DNA of 45,161 bases from Octopus sinensis (lineage: Eukaryota). A program made the translations under genes and the position numbers. The stretch lies in contig NW_021834905.1 in the NCBI RefSeq assembly GCF_006345805.1, positions 1 to 45,161 on the forward strand. Reading direction: 5' to 3'. Positions 13,985 through 41,293 of the stretch are shown here, piece after piece. Each line of letters starts with the position of its first letter. Position 1 is the first letter of the stretch. The notes beneath the pieces were generated by a model. It had not been told where the DNA came from. It saw nothing but the letters and a program-made list of their open reading frames with translations, and searched no databases.

Positions 13985-14786
13985 TTTAACAAAATTGCTT
14001 CCGTGTAAACAGTGAAAATGTTGTCAATTTCCCCAAACAGGGACACAATTCGATTTTTAAACAATAACCAAAGCTTCTTCTCCCAAAGAGGGAGGGTTAC
14101 GGTTTACAATTATTTAACAAATGCAACACAACAACGCTTCCCTTACGAGGAACCAACAAACGTGATAACAATAGTTAAACAGAAATAATAATAACAACAA
14201 ACCTTACGGTAAACCAAAAAGCAGTACTCTGTTGAAGCTATAGGCCTTTATGGATCAGAAATAAACCAACAGCGGTACTCAGTAGAAGCATCTTTCGAGA
14301 AAACAGACATTACATACAGCCAAACTTCATATAGATACTTAATGCTAGCTAATTAGCAAATAATCTAATGTAAAACCCGTGCACACCTCCATCTGGACTA
14401 TTCCATTTCTGCACACTAATTTTATTTTTAATTTATTCCCATTCATGTGAAACCACATATTCAAGTTCAAGTCATTGATGCAATTTTATACCAATTGCTA
14501 TTTTTACTTTTGTTATGTTACGATAATATTATACTTTAGTTTGATTTTAATTATTACTTACTACATATAATTCAATTGTTATTATCATTTTTTATTAAAG
14601 TGAAAGCATCTGACATAAAATAGAAAAATGTTTTTGTTTCACTTTTAACACGTAATACTGAAATAGTGGATAAGATATGATATTGCTATGGGCTCGCTCT
14701 AGGTAAGAAGTTGAACATTTTTTTTTACCCATGAAACTACATGGACTCTAAGTAAGGCATATGTAAAAAAAATAAATAAATAAGAA

Positions 14787-15025
14787 GGCGGCGAGCTGGC
14801 AGAAACGATAGCACGCCGGGTGAAATGCGTAGCCGTATTTCGTCTGCCGTTACATTCTGAGTTCAAATTCCGCCGAGGTCGACTTTGCCTTTCATCCTTT
14901 CAGGGTCGGTAAATAAAGTACCAGTTACGCACTGGGGTCGATGTAATCGACTTAATCCGTTTGTCTGTCCTTATTTATCCACTCTATGTTTAGCCTTTTG
15001 TGGGTAGTAAAGAAACAGATATTTC
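14787..15025 (+). mobile_element. SINE family S1, full length
   Basis: GGCGGCGAGCTGGCAGAAACG...GAGTTCAAATTCCGCCGAGGTCGACTTTGCC...GTGGGTAGTAAAGAAA. Confidence 0.92.
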
Positions 15026-15239: not shown

Positions 15240-16112
15240 CTGGTAATGTGGTACCAGACTTTAAAAGAAGTGCCATCGTCGATTTGTTAAACCTCAAAAC
15301 CTTACAGGCTGATGCCCTAGTATGGTCTCAATCCAAGAATGAAATAAGCAAAGGATAAAAGACAACCCCACACTAACTGGCTAGCATGTTCGGGGGAGGG
15401 AGTAAGTCGATTACATCAACCTCAGTATACAACTGGTACTTAAGGATTAAAAGCAAAGACAGCGGAATTTGAGCGTAAAGACGGACGAAATGCCGCTGTC
15501 CACTTTGTCCGGCGTACCCAGGATCTACAAGCACCCCGTCTACTGACGCATGTAATATCGGTTTCAAAGTTTGGCACAAAACCAGCAGACTTCAGTGATC
15601 AACTATTACTTCTTTTATCGATCCCGAGAGGATGAAAGGCAAAGTCAACCTCGTCGAAATTTGAATTAAGAACGTAAAGACAAACGAAATGTCACTTAGC
15701 ATTTTCATCGTCGTACTAACGATTCTACCAGCCCGTCGCCTACGGGTCAATGTAAAATCGGTCTCAAATTTTTGTGCAAGGCTAGAAGTTTCGAATGGGG
15801 AGGGGGCCAAGTCGATTAAATCGACCCCAGTGATCAACTGGTGCTTGTTTTATCAACCTCGAAAAGATGAAAGGCAAAGTCAACCACGGTGGAATTTGAA
15901 CTCAGAACGTAAGGACGGACGAAATACCTGTTTCTTTACTACCCACAAGGGGCTAAACACAGAGAGGACAAACAAGGGCAGACAAACGGATTAAGTCGAT
16001 TACATCGACCCCAGTGCGTAACTGGCGGAATTTGAACTGAGAACCTAGCGGAAGACGAAATACGGCTAAGCAGTTTACCCGGCGTCCTAACGTTGCTGCC
16101 AGCGCGACGCCT
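15240..16112 (-). mobile_element. SINE cluster: S3 tail fragment (+) then 3-4 tandem S1-type copies (-)
   Basis: Repeated GATGAAAGGCAAAGTCAACC and GGAATTTGAACT motifs near 15465, 15630, 15867 and 16027. Confidence 0.8.
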
Positions 16113-22892: not shown

Positions 22893-22929
<37 letters not shown>

Positions 22930-23006
22930 CATATATTCATATATATACATATGTAGGTATTACAAGATAAGGGCATGAGTAAGTATTTTATTTATATCTC
23001 GCGTAT

Positions 23007-23067
23007 TTGCCGCTGAAGAGGGGAAAATTTCTTATGAATTAACCCCGAAATTGGACCAATACGGTAA
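23007..23067 (+). ncRNA. Type I hammerhead ribozyme, canonical core
   Basis: TTGCCG-CTGAAGA-GGGG(AA AATTT CTTAT GAATT AA)CCCC-GAAA-TTG(GAC)CAA-TA-CGGTAA. All three stems pair; predicted cleavage after A23061. Confidence 0.88.
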
Positions 23068-23285
23068 TAACGAATTTTTTAGAGATTTCTATCGGTTTAT
23101 TTCGAGACACATAAATTTTAATGGTTATCGACAAAAAAATTTTTGTTTCGGCATATTTGGCATTAGAATTTTTCTTCTGCCCTTACCTTGTAAATTATGT
23201 ATAAATTTTACCTTTAAATGCATTTTTGATATGCTGGCCATTGATAAAAATTTCTTCCCGAAAAATTTTTCCCCTATTAATTATA

Positions 23286-23350
<65 letters not shown>

Positions 23351-23632
23351 TATCATATATATATATACATACATACATACATACATACATACTACACATA
23401 CATACATACATACATACTACATCTGTTTGTTGTTTACACACCCGTCTTCGTCTTTTGTTTATTTCATAAACTCTTCCTATATATATATATACACACACAT
23501 ATATACAAATATATATAAATATATATTGATAGAAATGGTAAGACAACAAAAGAAGGAAAGAGACCTCGATATTATGCAAATAGATGAATTTATCTGTAAA
23601 TATAATATCTGACAATTATTCGGTAGCCATGG

Positions 23633-24859: not shown

Positions 24860-25500
24860 TCGATAGATTGACGGTTCGCTTCAAATCGCCAGTGTAGTGT
24901 TTTATTCCCGATCAAGAAACTTAGCTGTCAACAACCTGGTCTACCACATACCACAGATTGCTATAGACCGGCTCATCCAGCTGCCGGTAGGTGACACAAC
25001 GTGTTACAGTCGGGTTCATCAAGCTGTTCGTAGATACATCATGATGCTATAGCGTGGAATGCGCGCCGTTTCGGGGCCTACCTCTCGATGGCATCAATGA
25101 TATGAGGCCCCACTTGCTAGATCAACTGCTTATTAAACACAGCTCAATATTCTTCTAGCCATCGCTCATCGTCTCTTTTTAACCAAATCCAGTGGCTAGC
25201 CTTCTCCACTGTAGTTTGGACATCGGTCATGGTGGTATTTACTTTACGATGAGTTAGGCCTAACGATAACAACAGTCGTGTCACAACAAACCCTCTACAC
25301 CCGACTTCGAGGAGGTTTACATAACGGTCAATCTTTCGAGCCCTAGCGGCATTCATGTTATCTTCATGAGGAACCGTTAACTCGACTAGATTCAAAACTT
25401 TCTTTCCAAAATGTCCGCCTTTTTCGTAATTTGGATGGGAAAGAGTCCCTGGCATCCTGGTAAATCTGCAGTCACCTCCCAATACGTCCAGACGTCAATG
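24860..25500 (-). mobile_element. 3' end of a HERO-clade non-LTR retrotransposon (restriction-like endonuclease domain plus 3' UTR)
   Basis: WEVTADL...FPIQITKKADI, frameshift, then LVELTVPHEDNMNAARARKIDRY...EVGCRGF...VEKASHWIWLKR, with the stop at 25144-25146. ELTVP, RK..(K/R)Y, EVGCRGF and AS.W.W.KR are hallmark HERO motifs. The UTR boundary is approximate. Confidence 0.85.
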
Positions 25501-27494: not shown

Positions 27495-27897
27495 ACCAAG
27501 TTGTTTAGTTAAGCAGTTCGCGTTGCAATCGTGTGGTTTCGGGTTCAGTAACACTGCGCAATACCTTGGCCTGTTGTCTTCCACTACAGTCCTGAACCGA
27601 GCAATGCTTTGTGAGCGAACTTTATAGATGGAAACTGTATGGAAGCTCGTCATGTATATGCATGTTATATGTGTGTGTGTCTTCGTATTTGTGTTTTTCT
27701 CCCACCGATTGACAACCGGTGCTGGTTTGTTTATATCCCCGGATGTATAACAGATGGTTATGATGATGTCGGTGCAGTAGAGCAAGATGAAAAGTAAAGT
27801 CGACCTCGGTGGAATTTGAACTCAGAACGTAAAGACAGACGAAATGCTGCTAAGCATCTTGCCCAGTGTGCCAACGATTCTGCCAGATCGCCGCCTT
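27495..27897. mobile_element. Decayed S3 SINE (+, 27495-27740) facing an S1 head (-, 27785-27897)
   Basis: Shared family motifs GGGTTCAGT, GGAAACTG, TGACAACCGGTGCTGG and AAAGTCGACCTCGGTGGAATTTGAACTCAG. Confidence 0.75.
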
Positions 27898-28018
27898 ATT
27901 GGTGGTATTGATACTGTCGATGGTATAGGTGATGGTGGTGACACTTTTACTATTGATAGCAGTACTGTTGATAGTGGGGCCATTAGGAGTGGTAGTCGTG
28001 GTGGTGTCGGTGTTGGAG

Positions 28019-30931: not shown

Positions 30932-31328
30932 CTTTTCTACTCTAGGCACAAGGCCCGAAATTTTTTGGGATGGGAGCCAGTCGATTAGTTCGACCCCAGT
31001 ACGCAACTGGCACTTAATTTATCGACCCCGAAAGGATGAAAGGCAAAGTCGACCTCGGCGGAATTTGAACTCAGGACGTAGCAGCAGACAAAATACCTAT
31101 TTCTTTACTGCCCACAAGGGGCTAAACACAGAGGGGACAAACAAGGACAGACAGACGGATTAAGTCGATTATGTCGACCGCAGTACGTAACTGGTACTTA
31201 ATTTATCGACCCCGAAATGATGAAAGGCAAAGTCGACCTCGGCGGAATTTGAACTCAGATCGTAACGGCAGACGAAATGCGGCTACGCATTTCGCCCGGC
31301 GTGCTAACGTTTCTGCCAGCTCGCCGCC
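30932..31328 (-). mobile_element. Dimeric S1 SINE within a single TSD pair
   Basis: Two tandem ACCCCGAAA.GATGAAAGGCAAAGTCGACCTCGGCGGAATTTGAACTCAG cores; flanks TTTGAA(T/G)TTGCAATATT at 30915-30931 and 31329-31345. Confidence 0.9.
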
Positions 31329-32265
31329 TTTGAAGTTGCAATATTAGAGGAAAACAATACAGCAGGGAACTTCTATGTAGCTGCTATTATTGCTAAAACA
31401 ACTGCCATATCTTTCTAAAACCACTGAAAAAAATAACATTTAAAAAGAAAAGAATTCATTGGCTAATACGACCCCAAGATACACTATGCCTAAAAAACAG
31501 ACAATCCAGCCATGACTGCCGTTGCTTGATTACCTTTACTCGCATGGCTGTTCACTCACTGATAACTTTGTTCCTAAATAATAACGGAAGGAAGTTTGAG
31601 ATAAGTGTACTTCATTGATAAATGCTAGCACAGTTGTAGATTGCCATGGTCTGTTCTGTTATAATCAATCACACGAATCAGGTAGATTAACCAATGACTA
31701 ATAAGCACTGTTATTAATGACATAAGCAAGCAGGGGTCCTTAACAAAGAAACCTGACCGTCTGAACAATGCGAGGATCATTGAGAAAGTGCTGTGGTTAC
31801 ATACCTGCGTCAGTATTAACGGGGAGGAAAACTAAAAACACAAACAATTTTGTCGATGATCCTGAAGCTGCTTTCAAGCAAATGTATAGCTGACTCAGGA
31901 AACCAATTTCAAAAAGCTTTAAAATAACACGCCTATAATTTCAGAGATCACAGGGTTTTTTTAAATACCCGTTTTATTATAGTAAACAGTCCCATACCAT
32001 TCTGGTATGGGACTATCGTCACGTGGACTTAAATGAAGAAATCTCGATTTAAATGTCCTACTCAAAAGACACAATAGAACGCCCGAATTAGAAATGTAAG
32101 CAAAGAGATTTGAACATACAATCTCTGTGTTTATAATCCAACAGCCTATCCAATCGGTTTTGGAATGCAATTGAATCAGGATAAATATTTGTTTGAGGTG
32201 AGCATAGGGTAATTTGTAGGTAACTAAAACACGAACATTGATATCTGTATATATGACGATTTATG

Positions 32266-32490
32266 AAGGCGGCGAGTTGGCAGAAACGTTAGCACGCTGG
32301 GCGAAATGCTTAGCCGTATTTCGTCTGCCGTTACGTTCTGAGTTCTAATTCCGCTGAGGTCGACTTTGCCTTTCATCCTCTCGGGGTCGATAAATTAAGT
32401 ACCAGTTACGCACTGGTAATCGACTTAATCCGTCTGTCTGTCCGTGTTTGTTCCCTCTGTGTTTAGCCCCTTGTGGACAATAAGGAAATA
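32266..32490 (+). mobile_element. SINE family S1, full length, with ~15 bp TSD
   Basis: TATATGA(C/G)GATTTAT at 32250-32264 and 32493-32507. Confidence 0.9.
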
Positions 32491-35790: not shown

Positions 35791-35850
35791 TACACACACA
35801 CACTCACACACACTCACACACACATACATAGCAAAAGTATAAGAGGTATT

Positions 35851-36141
35851 ATGGAGAAGTTCTTAAGCAGATCAGGCCAAAAATGTCGCTAGAAGCTAGG
35901 ATCACCAAGCATAGATTGGCATATTTCGGTCATATTATGCGGAGAAAATCCCTGGAGAAGGACATCATGCTCGGAATGGTCAGTGCCAAGAGAGGAAGAG
36001 GCCGACCAAGAACCCGCTGGCTTGACACCATCAAGGGTGATACCGGAATGGACATAGCCAATCTGAAAGAAGCGGCCCAGGATAGAACTGACTGGAGGAC
36101 ACTGATCCAACGAGTAATCGAGAGTCGACTTCGACTGAGCG

Positions 36142-36183
<42 letters not shown>

Positions 36184-38456: not shown

Positions 38457-38496
<40 letters not shown>

Positions 38497-38536
<40 letters not shown>

Positions 38537-39516
38537 AGTATATATGTGTGTGTGTGTATGCTTGTATATATGTATGCGTGTACAAATGTATGTATAAATG
38601 TATGTACGAAGACATCAATGTATGTACGAATGCGTCTATGTATGTACGAACGTATGTCTTAATGTATGTACATATGAGTGAAGGCGTGTGGCCTAGCGGC
38701 TAGGCTGTTGCGCTCAGGATCGCTTGATCGTGGGTTCGATTTCCTGAGTGAGCGGCACGTGAGGTTCTTGAGCAAAACACTTCCTTTCGTGGTGTTCATA
38801 TATGTGTGTGTATAAATATATATGTGTGTGTATGCTTGTATATATGTATGCGTGTACAAATGTATGTATGCATGTATGTACGTTTACAATCCATGTATGT
38901 ACGAACGTATATCATAAGTATGTACGCATGCGTGAAGTCGTGTGGCCTAGCGGCTAGGCTGTGGCGCTATGATCGCTTGATCGTGGGTTCGATTCCTTGA
39001 TTGAGTAGCGTGTAGGGTTCTTGAGCAAAACACTTCCTTTCATGTTGTTCCCATTTCGATCAGGTAGGTAATGTTGGCTTGCTCGCTTAGCCAGCGGGGT
39101 GGCGTTATTTGAGGGCTAAAGCAATGCAAAAGCGCATTGTGACCAGCGTTGTACAATAACGTCTGACAGCCTTGTCGATCCTATGATGTACCTATGCATG
39201 TACGTATGTACGTATGCATGTGCACAAGTATGTATGTTCTAGAGTTACCCGTTCAGGAAAACATGATGAAGTCGCCGAAAATAAAATACTCAGTGTGCAT
39301 ATACGGGTTTGAAACATGTTTTATAAAATAGAGACTAACAAATTATGTTTTCGAATGAAGCAAAAACAATTTTTGTGGAACTCACTGTAAAAAACAAATT
39401 AGAGTGGTATTGCTCAGGTGTCGAAACCATAGTGATATCCGTGGGACAGCTGAGGATGGAGGTGAGGATGGCTGTTATTGTATGTGCGCAGAAGTTTTAT
39501 AAGACATACATCTGAT

Positions 39517-39562
<46 letters not shown>

Positions 39563-40560
39563 TGTGTGTGTGTGTGTGTGTATAAGTATATATGTGTTGT
39601 GTGTGTATGCTGTTATAGATGTATGCGTGTACAAATGTATGTATAAATGTATGTACGAAGACATCAATGTATGTACGAATGCGTCTATGTATGTACGAAC
39701 GTATGTCTTAATGTATGTACATAGAGTGAAGGCGTGTGGCCTAGCGGCTAGGCTGTTGCGTCACTCGATCGCTGATCGTGGGTTCGATTCCTGAGTGAGC
39801 GGCACGTGAGGTTCTTGAGCAAAACACTTCCTTCGTGGTGTTCATATATGTGTGTGTATAAATATATATGTGTGTGTATGCTTGTATATATGTATGCGTG
39901 TACAAATGTATGTATGCATGTATGTACGTTTACATCCATGTATGTACGAACGTATATCATAATGTATGTACGCATGCGTGAAGTCGTGTGGCCTAGCGGC
40001 TAGGCTGTGGCGCTTATGATCGCTTGATCGTGGGTTCGATTCCTTGATTGAGTAGCGTGTAGGGTTCTTGAGCAAAACACTTCCTTTCATGTTGTTCCCA
40101 TTTCGATCAGGGTAGAATGTTGGCTTGCTCGCTTAGCCAGCGGGGTGGCGTTATTTGAGGGCTAAAGCAATGCAAAAGCGCATTGTGACCAGCGTTGTAC
40201 AATAACGTCTGACAGCCTTGTCGATCCTATGATGTACCTATGCATGTACGTATGTACGTATGCATGTGCACAAGTATGTATGTTCTAGAGTTACCCGTTC
40301 AGGAAAACATGATGAAGTCGCCGAAAATAAAATACTCAGTGTGCATATACGGGTTTGAAACATGTTTTATAAAATAGAGACTACAAATTATGTTTTCGAA
40401 TGAAGCAAAAACATTTTTGTGGAACTCACTGTAAAAAACAATTAGAGTGGTATTGCTCATGGTGTCGAAACATAGTGATATCCGTGGGACAGCTGAGGAT
40501 GGAGGTGAGGATGGCTGTTATTGGTATGTGCGCAGAAGTTTTATAAGACATACATCTGAT

Positions 40561-40605
<45 letters not shown>
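38497..40605. repeat. ~1.04 kb near-identical tandem duplication bounded by (TG)n; each unit has an internal ~250 bp duplication of a SINE head
   Basis: 38531-39530 matches 39579-40575 (offset 1044-1048), and the differences are mostly 1 bp indels. Confidence 0.95.
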
Positions 40606-40608
<3 letters not shown>

Positions 40609-41293
40609 CCTTGTGTCTATATTTGTCCTGCACCACCGCTTCACAAAAAGATGAATGTTAATGTTGTCAAGACAGTTCTTCGAGGCATTTGATGCCGTTG
40701 TTATTATTCTTGTTTAACTCCAGGGTAACTCTGGTGCAGCCGACCAACAGCCAATTGTATTCCAGTTGTGACTCTCCTATCTACAACTACATTCCTTATT
40801 CAATTCGGTTAGGTGTGATTTAAGGGTGACGTAACTGTTATTTCAAGTCGGATTGGCGGCAACGTTGACTTGCTAATGGGTGACGTTGCTAACAACAACT
40901 AAATCCCTGCTCTGTGCCTTAAAACATTATCAACTGCTCCTTTAGTATCTCAGACACCATGTTGTGATATAACATTCCATTATGATATTTGTGAAAATTA
41001 TTCGCAGCCTCTGGACTACTTGACAAGTTAAGCAGCTACTCCAGTGTTAATGCTGAGTCAGAAATTGTGTAAAGTACTTCTTATCTGGAAGGAAGCCATC
41101 AGTAGCAAATAATCTTATGCCCAGAACATAAATTTACCTTTGACAATTCTTTCCTTGGTTCATGAGCCTTGTGAAAACACAGTAAAATCTCTGCTTTCTC
41201 ATCTTATAATTATATACATAGATACATACATGCATGCATACATATGTGCTTACATTCATCCCGTATATATACATTAAAAAAATTAAAAATTGG

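What the first reader, a model, noticed from the sequence alone, without database searches (positions are those of the whole stretch)
23007..23067. Apparently intact, monomer-competent type I hammerhead
Seen: a perfect CUGAAGA/GAAA core, G10.1-C11.1 closing a 4 bp GC stem II with an extension, a 6 bp stem I, and a stem III (AUUG/CAAU) long enough to fold in cis or dimerise through near-palindromic AUUGGACCAAU. The cleavage triplet is AUA. It lies in a ~320 bp unit (about 22957-23281) between TA tracts. This is the best candidate in the window for a currently active ribozyme.
Basis: partly seen in the sequence, partly recalled or inferred. Interest (0 to 1): 0.75.

Follow-up and report, generated by a model that had tools for sequence, protein, structure and literature searches.

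The report
Truncated hammerhead retrozyme, dimer-type ribozyme
This is a shortened copy of a protein-free jumping repeat, present in hundreds of copies, that carries an intact self-cutting RNA motif predicted to work in pairs and that is likely pasted into TA microsatellites by Penelope-type retrotransposon enzymes, a kind of element already known from other animals.

Summary
The hammerhead is real and intact: core, stems and AUA site lie as described, and its stems covary across three related families. It is not a lone ribozyme. It sits in a 5'-truncated copy (22975-23285, plus a 17-nt inverted stub) of a 468-nt non-coding repeat; a 22-mer across the cut site occurs 315 times in the genome. 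Copies carry the Penelope footprint: (TA)n targets, head-to-head arms, and two fixed 3' ends about 82 nt apart (29 of 30 scorable two-arm loci use one of each). 'Monomer-competent' is doubtful: the cis stem III is unstable, the active monomer fold holds 1-8% of the ensemble, two copies co-fold into the double hammerhead, and the palindrome is kept at loop positions that can pair only in trans. 'Currently active' is unsupported: this copy has one ribozyme and differs from the family majority at 13 of 315 positions, while a sister subfamily forms arrays over 99% identical. Verdict: a new member of the animal non-LTR retrozymes. The scan has noted this kind before, in this genome and others. Cleavage is untested.

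The parts
22897..22952 (.). (TA)n tract, left half of the target microsatellite
22959..22975 (-). Inverted, 5'-truncated second arm (stub); 16 nt match the family sequence just before the short 3' end (equivalent of window 23178-23193)
22975..23285 (+). Main arm: 3' two thirds of the 468-nt monomer (family A), ending at the long 3' end; 13 of 315 positions (22971-23285) differ from the family majority
23002..23003 (+). 5' strand of distal helix I (pairs 23071-23072), beyond a 3x3 internal loop (23004-06 / 23068-70)
   Evidence: helix 1, 80% of cells paired, 2 of 3 pairs with a double change
23007..23012 (+). Stem I 5' strand (pairs 23062-23067)
   Evidence: 5 of 6 pairs with a double change
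23013..23019 (+). Catalytic box C3-A9 (CUGAAGA)
23020..23046 (+). Stem II (4 G-C pairs), A-rich internal loop and extension hairpin
23047..23050 (+). G12-A13-A14-A15.1
23050..23060 (+). Stem III / 11-nt palindrome: 4 bp and a 3-nt loop in cis, 5+5 bp around an A.A mismatch in trans
23059..23061 (+). NUH triplet AUA; predicted cut 3' of A23061
   Evidence: sequence; position inferred from the hammerhead consensus, untested
23062..23072 (+). Stem I 3' strand, internal loop (U1.7 = 23068) and distal helix 3' strand
23200..23285 (+). Tail of about 82-87 nt between the short and the long 3' end, holding an imperfect hairpin near 23243-23273
23282..23391 (.). (TA)n tract, right half of the target microsatellite

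Best explanation
The motif is an intact type I hammerhead inside a 5'-truncated copy of a 468-nt non-coding repeat (a non-LTR retrozyme) that is likely mobilised in trans by Penelope-like retrotransposon enzymes, and the ribozyme is predicted to cut mainly as a double hammerhead. Shown: the structure and its covariation, the family, the tandem and head-to-head layout, the two fixed 3' ends on (TA)n, and no reading frame joined to the unit in the loci examined. Inferred cycle: a tandem source locus is transcribed; two neighbouring hammerheads pair through the stem III palindrome and cut out a unit-length RNA; a host ligase closes it into a circle, which the weak cis stem III leaves largely uncut; a Penelope-type RT/GIY-YIG protein nicks both strands of a (TA)n tract and primes reverse transcription at two internal sites about 82 nt apart, giving two back-to-back arms of random length. 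The window's copy is such an insertion (311-nt long-end arm, 17-nt short-end arm); with one ribozyme it could not release a unit-length RNA and is likely a dead end, though its ribozyme sequence should still be competent if a partner is supplied.
For: Structure: 90% of 540 cells paired, 12 of 18 pairs with a double change in 30 copies from families A, B, C; slid controls 29-38% paired. Family: 315 exact 22-mers, control 0; 1364 hits of a superfamily pattern, control 1. Layout in 74 loci taken in genome order: 51 with two opposite arms, 48 head-to-head; of 30 with both arms at a defined end, 29 pair a short with a long end, 1 long/long, 0 short/short. 16 of 125 arms exceed one unit. Of 42 arms not selected for the cut site, 17 run through it and 1 stops at it, so cut linear RNA is not the main template. 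Opposite arms of one locus differ at 16% of diagnostic cells against 49% between loci. In sister-family arrays a locus-specific variant is shared by all 7 monomers on both arms of L275, another by 6 of 7 monomers of L278 (gap in the seventh). Dimer mode: cis hairpin +1.8, trans duplex -8.9 kcal/mol; co-folding two copies gives the double hammerhead as lowest-energy structure; the outer loop III positions are complementary in 147 of 150 distinct sequences (116 G-C, 28 A-U, 3 G-U). Literature: PMC7229834, PMC4209133, PMC8557442, PMC11167929, bioRxiv 10.64898/2026.07.22.740005.
Against: No cleavage, RNA ends or circles were observed. The covariation rests on few lineages (three families, some subfamilies); the G-C to A-U swap in loop III is one independent event. 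No autonomous partner was found: a profile of the monomers hit no Penelope-like element among 90 loci tested. The one junction with a young Penelope-like fragment (L037) pairs two short ends, against the long/short rule. An uncut linear multimer also explains arms that cross the cut site, and in the anole element ribozyme cleavage was dispensable in vitro (PMC11167929). In bioRxiv 2026.07.22.740005 only 1 of 9 predicted dimer elements cleaved. Some amplified sister subfamilies carry U4C or a mismatch at the base of stem II, so a perfect ribozyme is not required for spread. Folding energies omit tertiary contacts.
Confidence: 0.8

Rival explanations
1. The ribozyme cleaves efficiently as a monomer: loop I-loop II tertiary contacts pull the 4-bp cis stem III into the active fold.
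For: Active fold only 1.0 kcal/mol above the lowest-energy fold; stem III longer than the 1-2 bp of typical animal type I motifs (PMC4209133); coral and mussel single-ribozyme constructs cleaved at about 0.8 and 0.1 per min (PMC7229834); U1.7 and the last A of loop II are kept in 30 of 30 aligned copies (their role is recalled, not from a call); family C has a stable cis hairpin (-0.7 to -1.3 kcal/mol).
Against: Stem III pair probabilities 0.05-0.06; active fold 1.3-8.4% in 4 contexts; complementarity kept at positions that cannot pair in cis.
Confidence: 0.3
2. Same element and enzymes, but the template is an uncut linear multimer or read-through transcript rather than a circle, and the ribozyme is a passenger.
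For: Anole PLE uses unprocessed RNA in vitro and no reads ended at its cut site (PMC11167929); subfamilies with core or stem II deviations amplified; arms crossing the cut site fit this as well.
Against: Core and stems are kept by compensatory change across families only 63-79% identical; arrays of 6-9 units with a locus-specific variant in all units on both arms are simplest from one circle.
Confidence: 0.25
3. The unit is the terminal repeat (pLTR) of an autonomous Penelope-like element whose coding copies were not sampled.
For: Footprint is that of PLEs (PMC8557442); most PLE insertions are 5'-truncated; only part of the family was examined (74 loci plus 60 score-ranked loci, some overlapping).
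Against: In the 30 loci chosen for the unit's 5' part, 29 show the unit's own 3' end directly upstream, not coding sequence; 7 of 74 loci have PLE coding pieces within 3 kb; the two nearest (L151, L180) are decayed remnants 240-480 nt away and the others lie 800 nt or more away; PLE coding families here carry different, minimal hammerheads.
Confidence: 0.08
4. The motif is a chance match, or a locus-specific ribozyme kept for a host gene.
For: This copy's ribozyme has no change while the rest has 4%.
Against: 0 hits in 100 simulated windows; 8 of 40 copies share the identical motif; core mismatch among copies (1.3%) is near the median column (1.9%); no convincing host exon among 59 frames of 100 aa or more (judged by eye).
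Confidence: 0.02

Closest known systems
Metazoan non-LTR retrozymes (Cervera and de la Pena 2020, PMC7229834, parts 2-4 of 6 read; Li, Clavereau and Pollet 2026, bioRxiv 10.64898/2026.07.22.740005, parts 1-3 of 5 read)
   Same: Non-coding, low-GC unit of a few hundred nt with one type I hammerhead (6-bp helix I, 4-bp helix II, short palindromic helix III); monomers, dimers and multimers; co-occurs with PLEs.
   Different: Unit 468-495 nt, longer than the 170-400 nt of the 2020 paper but within the 51-972 bp of the preprint; extended stem II; head-to-head arms with two fixed ends on (TA)n, not described in the parts I read; no sequence likeness to local PLE terminal repeats found, unlike 24 of 57 Xenopus families; circles not shown here.
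Penelope-like elements with C-terminal GIY-YIG (Neptune, Hydra, Poseidon; PMC8557442 passages, PMC11167929 abstract and main text)
   Same: Partial tandems, inverted 5'-truncated arm, tail on one end, (TA)n targets; two RT start sites define the tail in the anole element.
   Different: No RT or endonuclease frame; tail about 82 nt rather than 30-40; canonical-type rather than minimal hammerhead.
Double (dimeric) hammerheads of newt/axolotl satellite repeats and Aedes repeats (PMC4209133 parts 1-2 of 4; PMC3088659 passages, Fig. S8 legend)
   Same: Palindromic stem III plus loop III that pairs fully only between two ribozymes.
   Different: Cis stem III here is longer (3 bp beyond A15.1-U16.1), so monomer activity is a closer call.

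Membership tests
Type I hammerhead ribozyme | Core C3UGANGA9, G12AAA15.1 and U16.1-H17 | tested here: met
   all core boxes intact in 34 of 40 copies
Type I hammerhead ribozyme | Three helices, stem I open, supported by covariation | tested here: met
   12 of 18 pairs with a double change; few independent lineages
Type I hammerhead ribozyme | Score against Rfam hammerhead models | tested here: not met
   no hammerhead family matched; likely due to the long stem II insert (inference)
Type I hammerhead ribozyme | Loop I-loop II tertiary contact | not testable with these tools
   U1.7 and last loop II A conserved; role recalled
Type I hammerhead ribozyme | Site-specific self-cleavage | not testable with these tools
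   needs in vitro transcription
Non-LTR retrozyme | Short non-coding unit in head-to-tail tandems, each with a type I hammerhead | tested here: met
   468-nt period; sister arrays of 6-9 units
Non-LTR retrozyme | No RT or endonuclease coding capacity | tested here: met
Non-LTR retrozyme | Two consecutive ribozyme-bearing units ('active' criterion of Li et al.) | tested here: not met
   window copy has one; met at 3 of 74 family A loci and in sister arrays
Non-LTR retrozyme | Target-site duplication longer than 4 bp | tested here: inconclusive
   both flanks are (TA)n
Non-LTR retrozyme | Expression as linear and circular unit-length RNA | not testable with these tools
   only contigs of runs guessed to be RNA were available
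Penelope-like element (autonomous) | RT plus GIY-YIG reading frame | tested here: not met
Penelope-like element (autonomous) | Inverted 5'-truncated arm, tail on one end, (TA)n target | tested here: met
Penelope-like element (autonomous) | Minimal hammerhead (helix II 7-8 bp, helix I 4-5 bp, extra base after A9, little or no helix III) | tested here: not met
   helix I 6 bp, helix II 4 bp, no extra base in family A against PMC4209133

The most novel reading that the evidence does not exclude
These insertions record a Penelope-type RT-endonuclease dimer copying one small ribozyme RNA circle from both ends of a cut TA tract at two fixed start sites, and the stem III palindrome is selected as a counter that cuts multimers while sparing the monomer circle. 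The family would then be a direct test system for how retrozymes are mobilised and why their circles survive.
Probability: 0.45. Interest if true: 0.55.

Novelty: new member of a known kind. Interest (0 to 1): 0.3.

Why it matters
Animal genomes hold thousands of such type I hammerheads, so one more intact copy is ordinary. The family is useful as a test case for two open points: which enzymes move non-LTR retrozymes (Penelope-like elements are the proposed but unproven drivers) and why their circular RNAs are not cut by their own ribozyme. The long/short end rule, arms longer than one unit and the trans-only palindrome give concrete bench predictions, best tested on the young sister subfamily rather than on this decayed copy.

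Tried and rejected
Rfam: no hammerhead hit in the window and no family on the full unit. tRNA-derived head: a B-box-like word lies in the 5' part of the unit (consensus recalled), but ARAGORN found no tRNA and T runs follow it; promoter not identified. Expression: no RNA holder listed on record as RNA; contigs of runs guessed to be RNA cover the unit but cannot show strand, ends or level; at 23099, 23186 and 23219 the laid contigs carry the family letter, not this copy's, which is weak because contigs drop rare variants. Several contigs end at 23063-65, next to the cut site, but this is 30 nt after the common variant at 23034 and fits a k-mer branch point, so I rejected it as cleavage evidence. 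Autonomous partner: GIY-YIG search gave Neptune-like and other PLEs with no likeness to the unit; L037 chimera inconclusive; L151 and L180 neighbours are old remnants. Kissing of loop II UUAU with loop I AUAA: loop is UUGU in a large subfamily and the geometry is poor; dropped. Selection on inserted copies: core mismatch 1.3% against median column 1.9%, no signal. Sequence look-up in earlier notes found nothing.

Full report
Observation. A full descriptor finds it once in the window and never in 100 simulated windows. Rfam misses it, likely because of the long stem II insert (inference).

What it lies in. The window is a whole 45-kb contig of a 2.7-Gb, microsatellite-rich animal genome (earlier notes call it cephalopod or octopus-like; I did not test that). 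The 331-nt query gave 2441 candidates, of which 40 were scored, at 90-94% identity. Copies extend about 155 nt further 5' than the window's copy and run head to tail with a 468-nt period. An exact 22-mer across the cut site occurs 315 times, control 0. The window's copy is a 311-nt arm ending at the long 3' end, preceded by a 17-nt inverted stub that matches the family just before the short 3' end; 13 of 315 positions differ from the family majority, none within the ribozyme. Among 40 complete ribozyme segments in the first 30 loci (the window's own included), 34 have all core boxes, 24 also pass a strict stem test and 8 are identical to the window's.

Insertion footprint. I fetched 74 loci from the first 100 listed of the 315 hits, merging neighbours and leaving out those whose ribozyme region I already held. 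51 have two opposite arms, 48 of them head to head; 23 have one arm. Arm 3' ends fall at two unit positions about 82 nt apart, each followed by (TA)n. Of 30 two-arm loci with both ends at a defined site, 29 pair short with long, 1 long with long, none short with short; the other 21 have at least one end elsewhere. 16 of 125 arms exceed one unit. Of 42 arms not selected for the cut site, 17 cross it and 1 stops within 5 nt of it. Opposite arms of one locus differ by 4.7% against 7.6% between loci, and at 16% against 49% of diagnostic cells. This matches the Penelope-like layout of partial tandems, inverted truncated arm and tail (PMC8557442, passages) and the two reverse-transcription start sites, with both strands cut and extended, shown for the anole element (PMC11167929, main text).

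No coding part. In 29 of 30 loci chosen for the unit's 5' part, what lies upstream is the unit's own 3' end. PLE coding pieces lie within 3 kb of 7 of 74 loci; the two nearest, which I inspected, are decayed remnants. The genome has many PLEs, some with open frames of about 780 aa (RVT_1 plus GIY-YIG for L068), but they carry other, minimal hammerheads and a profile of the monomers finds only the unit's own copies among 90 such loci. One locus (L037) joins the unit head to head with a young PLE fragment through a 3-nt overlap, but both arms end at short sites, so it does not name the driver.

Related families and covariation. Two sister families turned up beside family A copies: B (63% identical, 488-495 nt) and C (79%, 476 nt). 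A superfamily pattern has 1364 hits, control 1; by eye 29 of the first 100 rows are type A and 71 type B. On 30 copies (11 A, 11 B, 8 C, picked from 150 distinct sequences; a divergent ninth C-like row was left out), 90% of cells pair and 12 of 18 pairs show a change on both sides, including 5 of 6 in stem I and 3 of 4 in stem II; slid controls pair 29-38%. Cells are not independent events: this rests on three families and a few subfamilies. Against a strict need for a perfect ribozyme, B subfamilies with U4C or a mismatch at the base of stem II also spread; U4C is reported as weak in vitro but sufficient in a viroid (PMC3088659, passage).

Monomer or dimer. The cis stem III hairpin costs +1.8 kcal/mol and its pairs have probability 0.05-0.06; the lowest-energy monomer pairs the CUGA box with the stem III 5' strand; the active fold is 1.0 kcal/mol higher and holds 1.3-8.4% of the ensemble in four contexts. 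Two copies co-fold into the double hammerhead as their lowest-energy structure, with a -8.9 kcal/mol palindromic duplex. The first and last bases of loop III, which cannot pair in cis, are complementary in 147 of 150 distinct sequences: G-C in A and C, A-U in B, while the middle varies. That is one independent swap, so it is suggestive, not proof. Palindromic loop III and dimer cleavage are known for animal type I motifs (PMC4209133; PMC7229834; PMC3088659). Tertiary contacts are not in the energy model, so monomer cleavage cannot be excluded.

Is it active now. Family A arms have diverged about 2.4% each since insertion (half of 4.7%), and this copy has one ribozyme, so it could not release a unit. 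The young lineage is a B subfamily with arrays of 6-9 units (one head to head, 3 plus 6) and 0.5% substitution within loci; each of L275 and L278 has its own variant in all or nearly all units, in L275 on both arms, as expected if one circle is copied repeatedly. No expression evidence could be had (see Tried and rejected).

Mechanism. Shown: structure, covariation, family, footprint, lack of coding frame. Inferred from the literature on retrozymes (PMC7229834) and PLEs: transcription of a tandem locus, dimer cleavage, ligation to a circle, and priming from both DNA ends by a PLE protein. Not shown: any cleavage, circle, promoter or driver.

Novelty. This is a non-LTR retrozyme, a kind described in 2020 and tied to PLEs in a 2026 preprint. 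Six literature searches listed no paper on cephalopod retrozymes; I saw PMC10886601 and PMC11662667 only as listings, and I did not open the supplements of PMC7229834 or PMC8557442, nor could I see those of the preprint, which may list such families. I derived the long/short rule before seeing that earlier notes of this scan report the same footprint for other units in this genome and in others; those are unchecked AI notes, not independent support. Interest 0.3.

Noticed in passing
L275-L278 (G000:C1:73.24 Mb, 21.83 Mb, 57.51 Mb, 112.50 Mb): Young sister-family arrays of 6-9 hammerhead units of 492-495 nt, about 99.5% identical within a locus, one head to head (3 plus 6); better material for activity tests than the window's copy.
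   Followed up: partly
L037:1262-2475: Retrozyme arm joined head to head, with a 3-nt overlap, to the 3' part of a young GIY-YIG Penelope-like element; both ends are short-type.
   Followed up: partly
L091-L120: Penelope-like family (1525 candidates) with its own tail of about 58 nt and long/short arms; its hammerhead has C in place of A9 in most copies listed.
   Followed up: partly
L065, L068, L077, L080-L083, L086-L090, 3' non-coding part: Neptune-like elements carry a minimal hammerhead with the U3-A8 core variant described for Schistosoma in PMC4209133.
   Followed up: partly
L126/L127 (G000:C16:25146363 and 25146794): Another hammerhead family over the Rfam cut-off in a 431-nt tandem; likely a further retrozyme.
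   Followed up: no
L014, L022, L048, L064, L123, L187, L251: Several unrelated type I hammerheads in flanking DNA, each with a self-complementary stem III.
   Followed up: no
window 10227-10460, 14785-15024, 15588-15741, 27786-27900, 31091-31330, 32266-32415: A dispersed repeat of about 240 nt in at least six copies in both orientations; SINE-like, not examined.
   Followed up: no
window 25144-25494 (-) and 35832-36146 (-): Short frames that resemble C-terminal parts of LINE proteins (resemblance recalled, not tested).
   Followed up: no
window about 38460-40610: Same tandem-repeat pattern recurs about 1046-1049 nt apart, suggesting a local duplication or assembly repeat.
   Followed up: no
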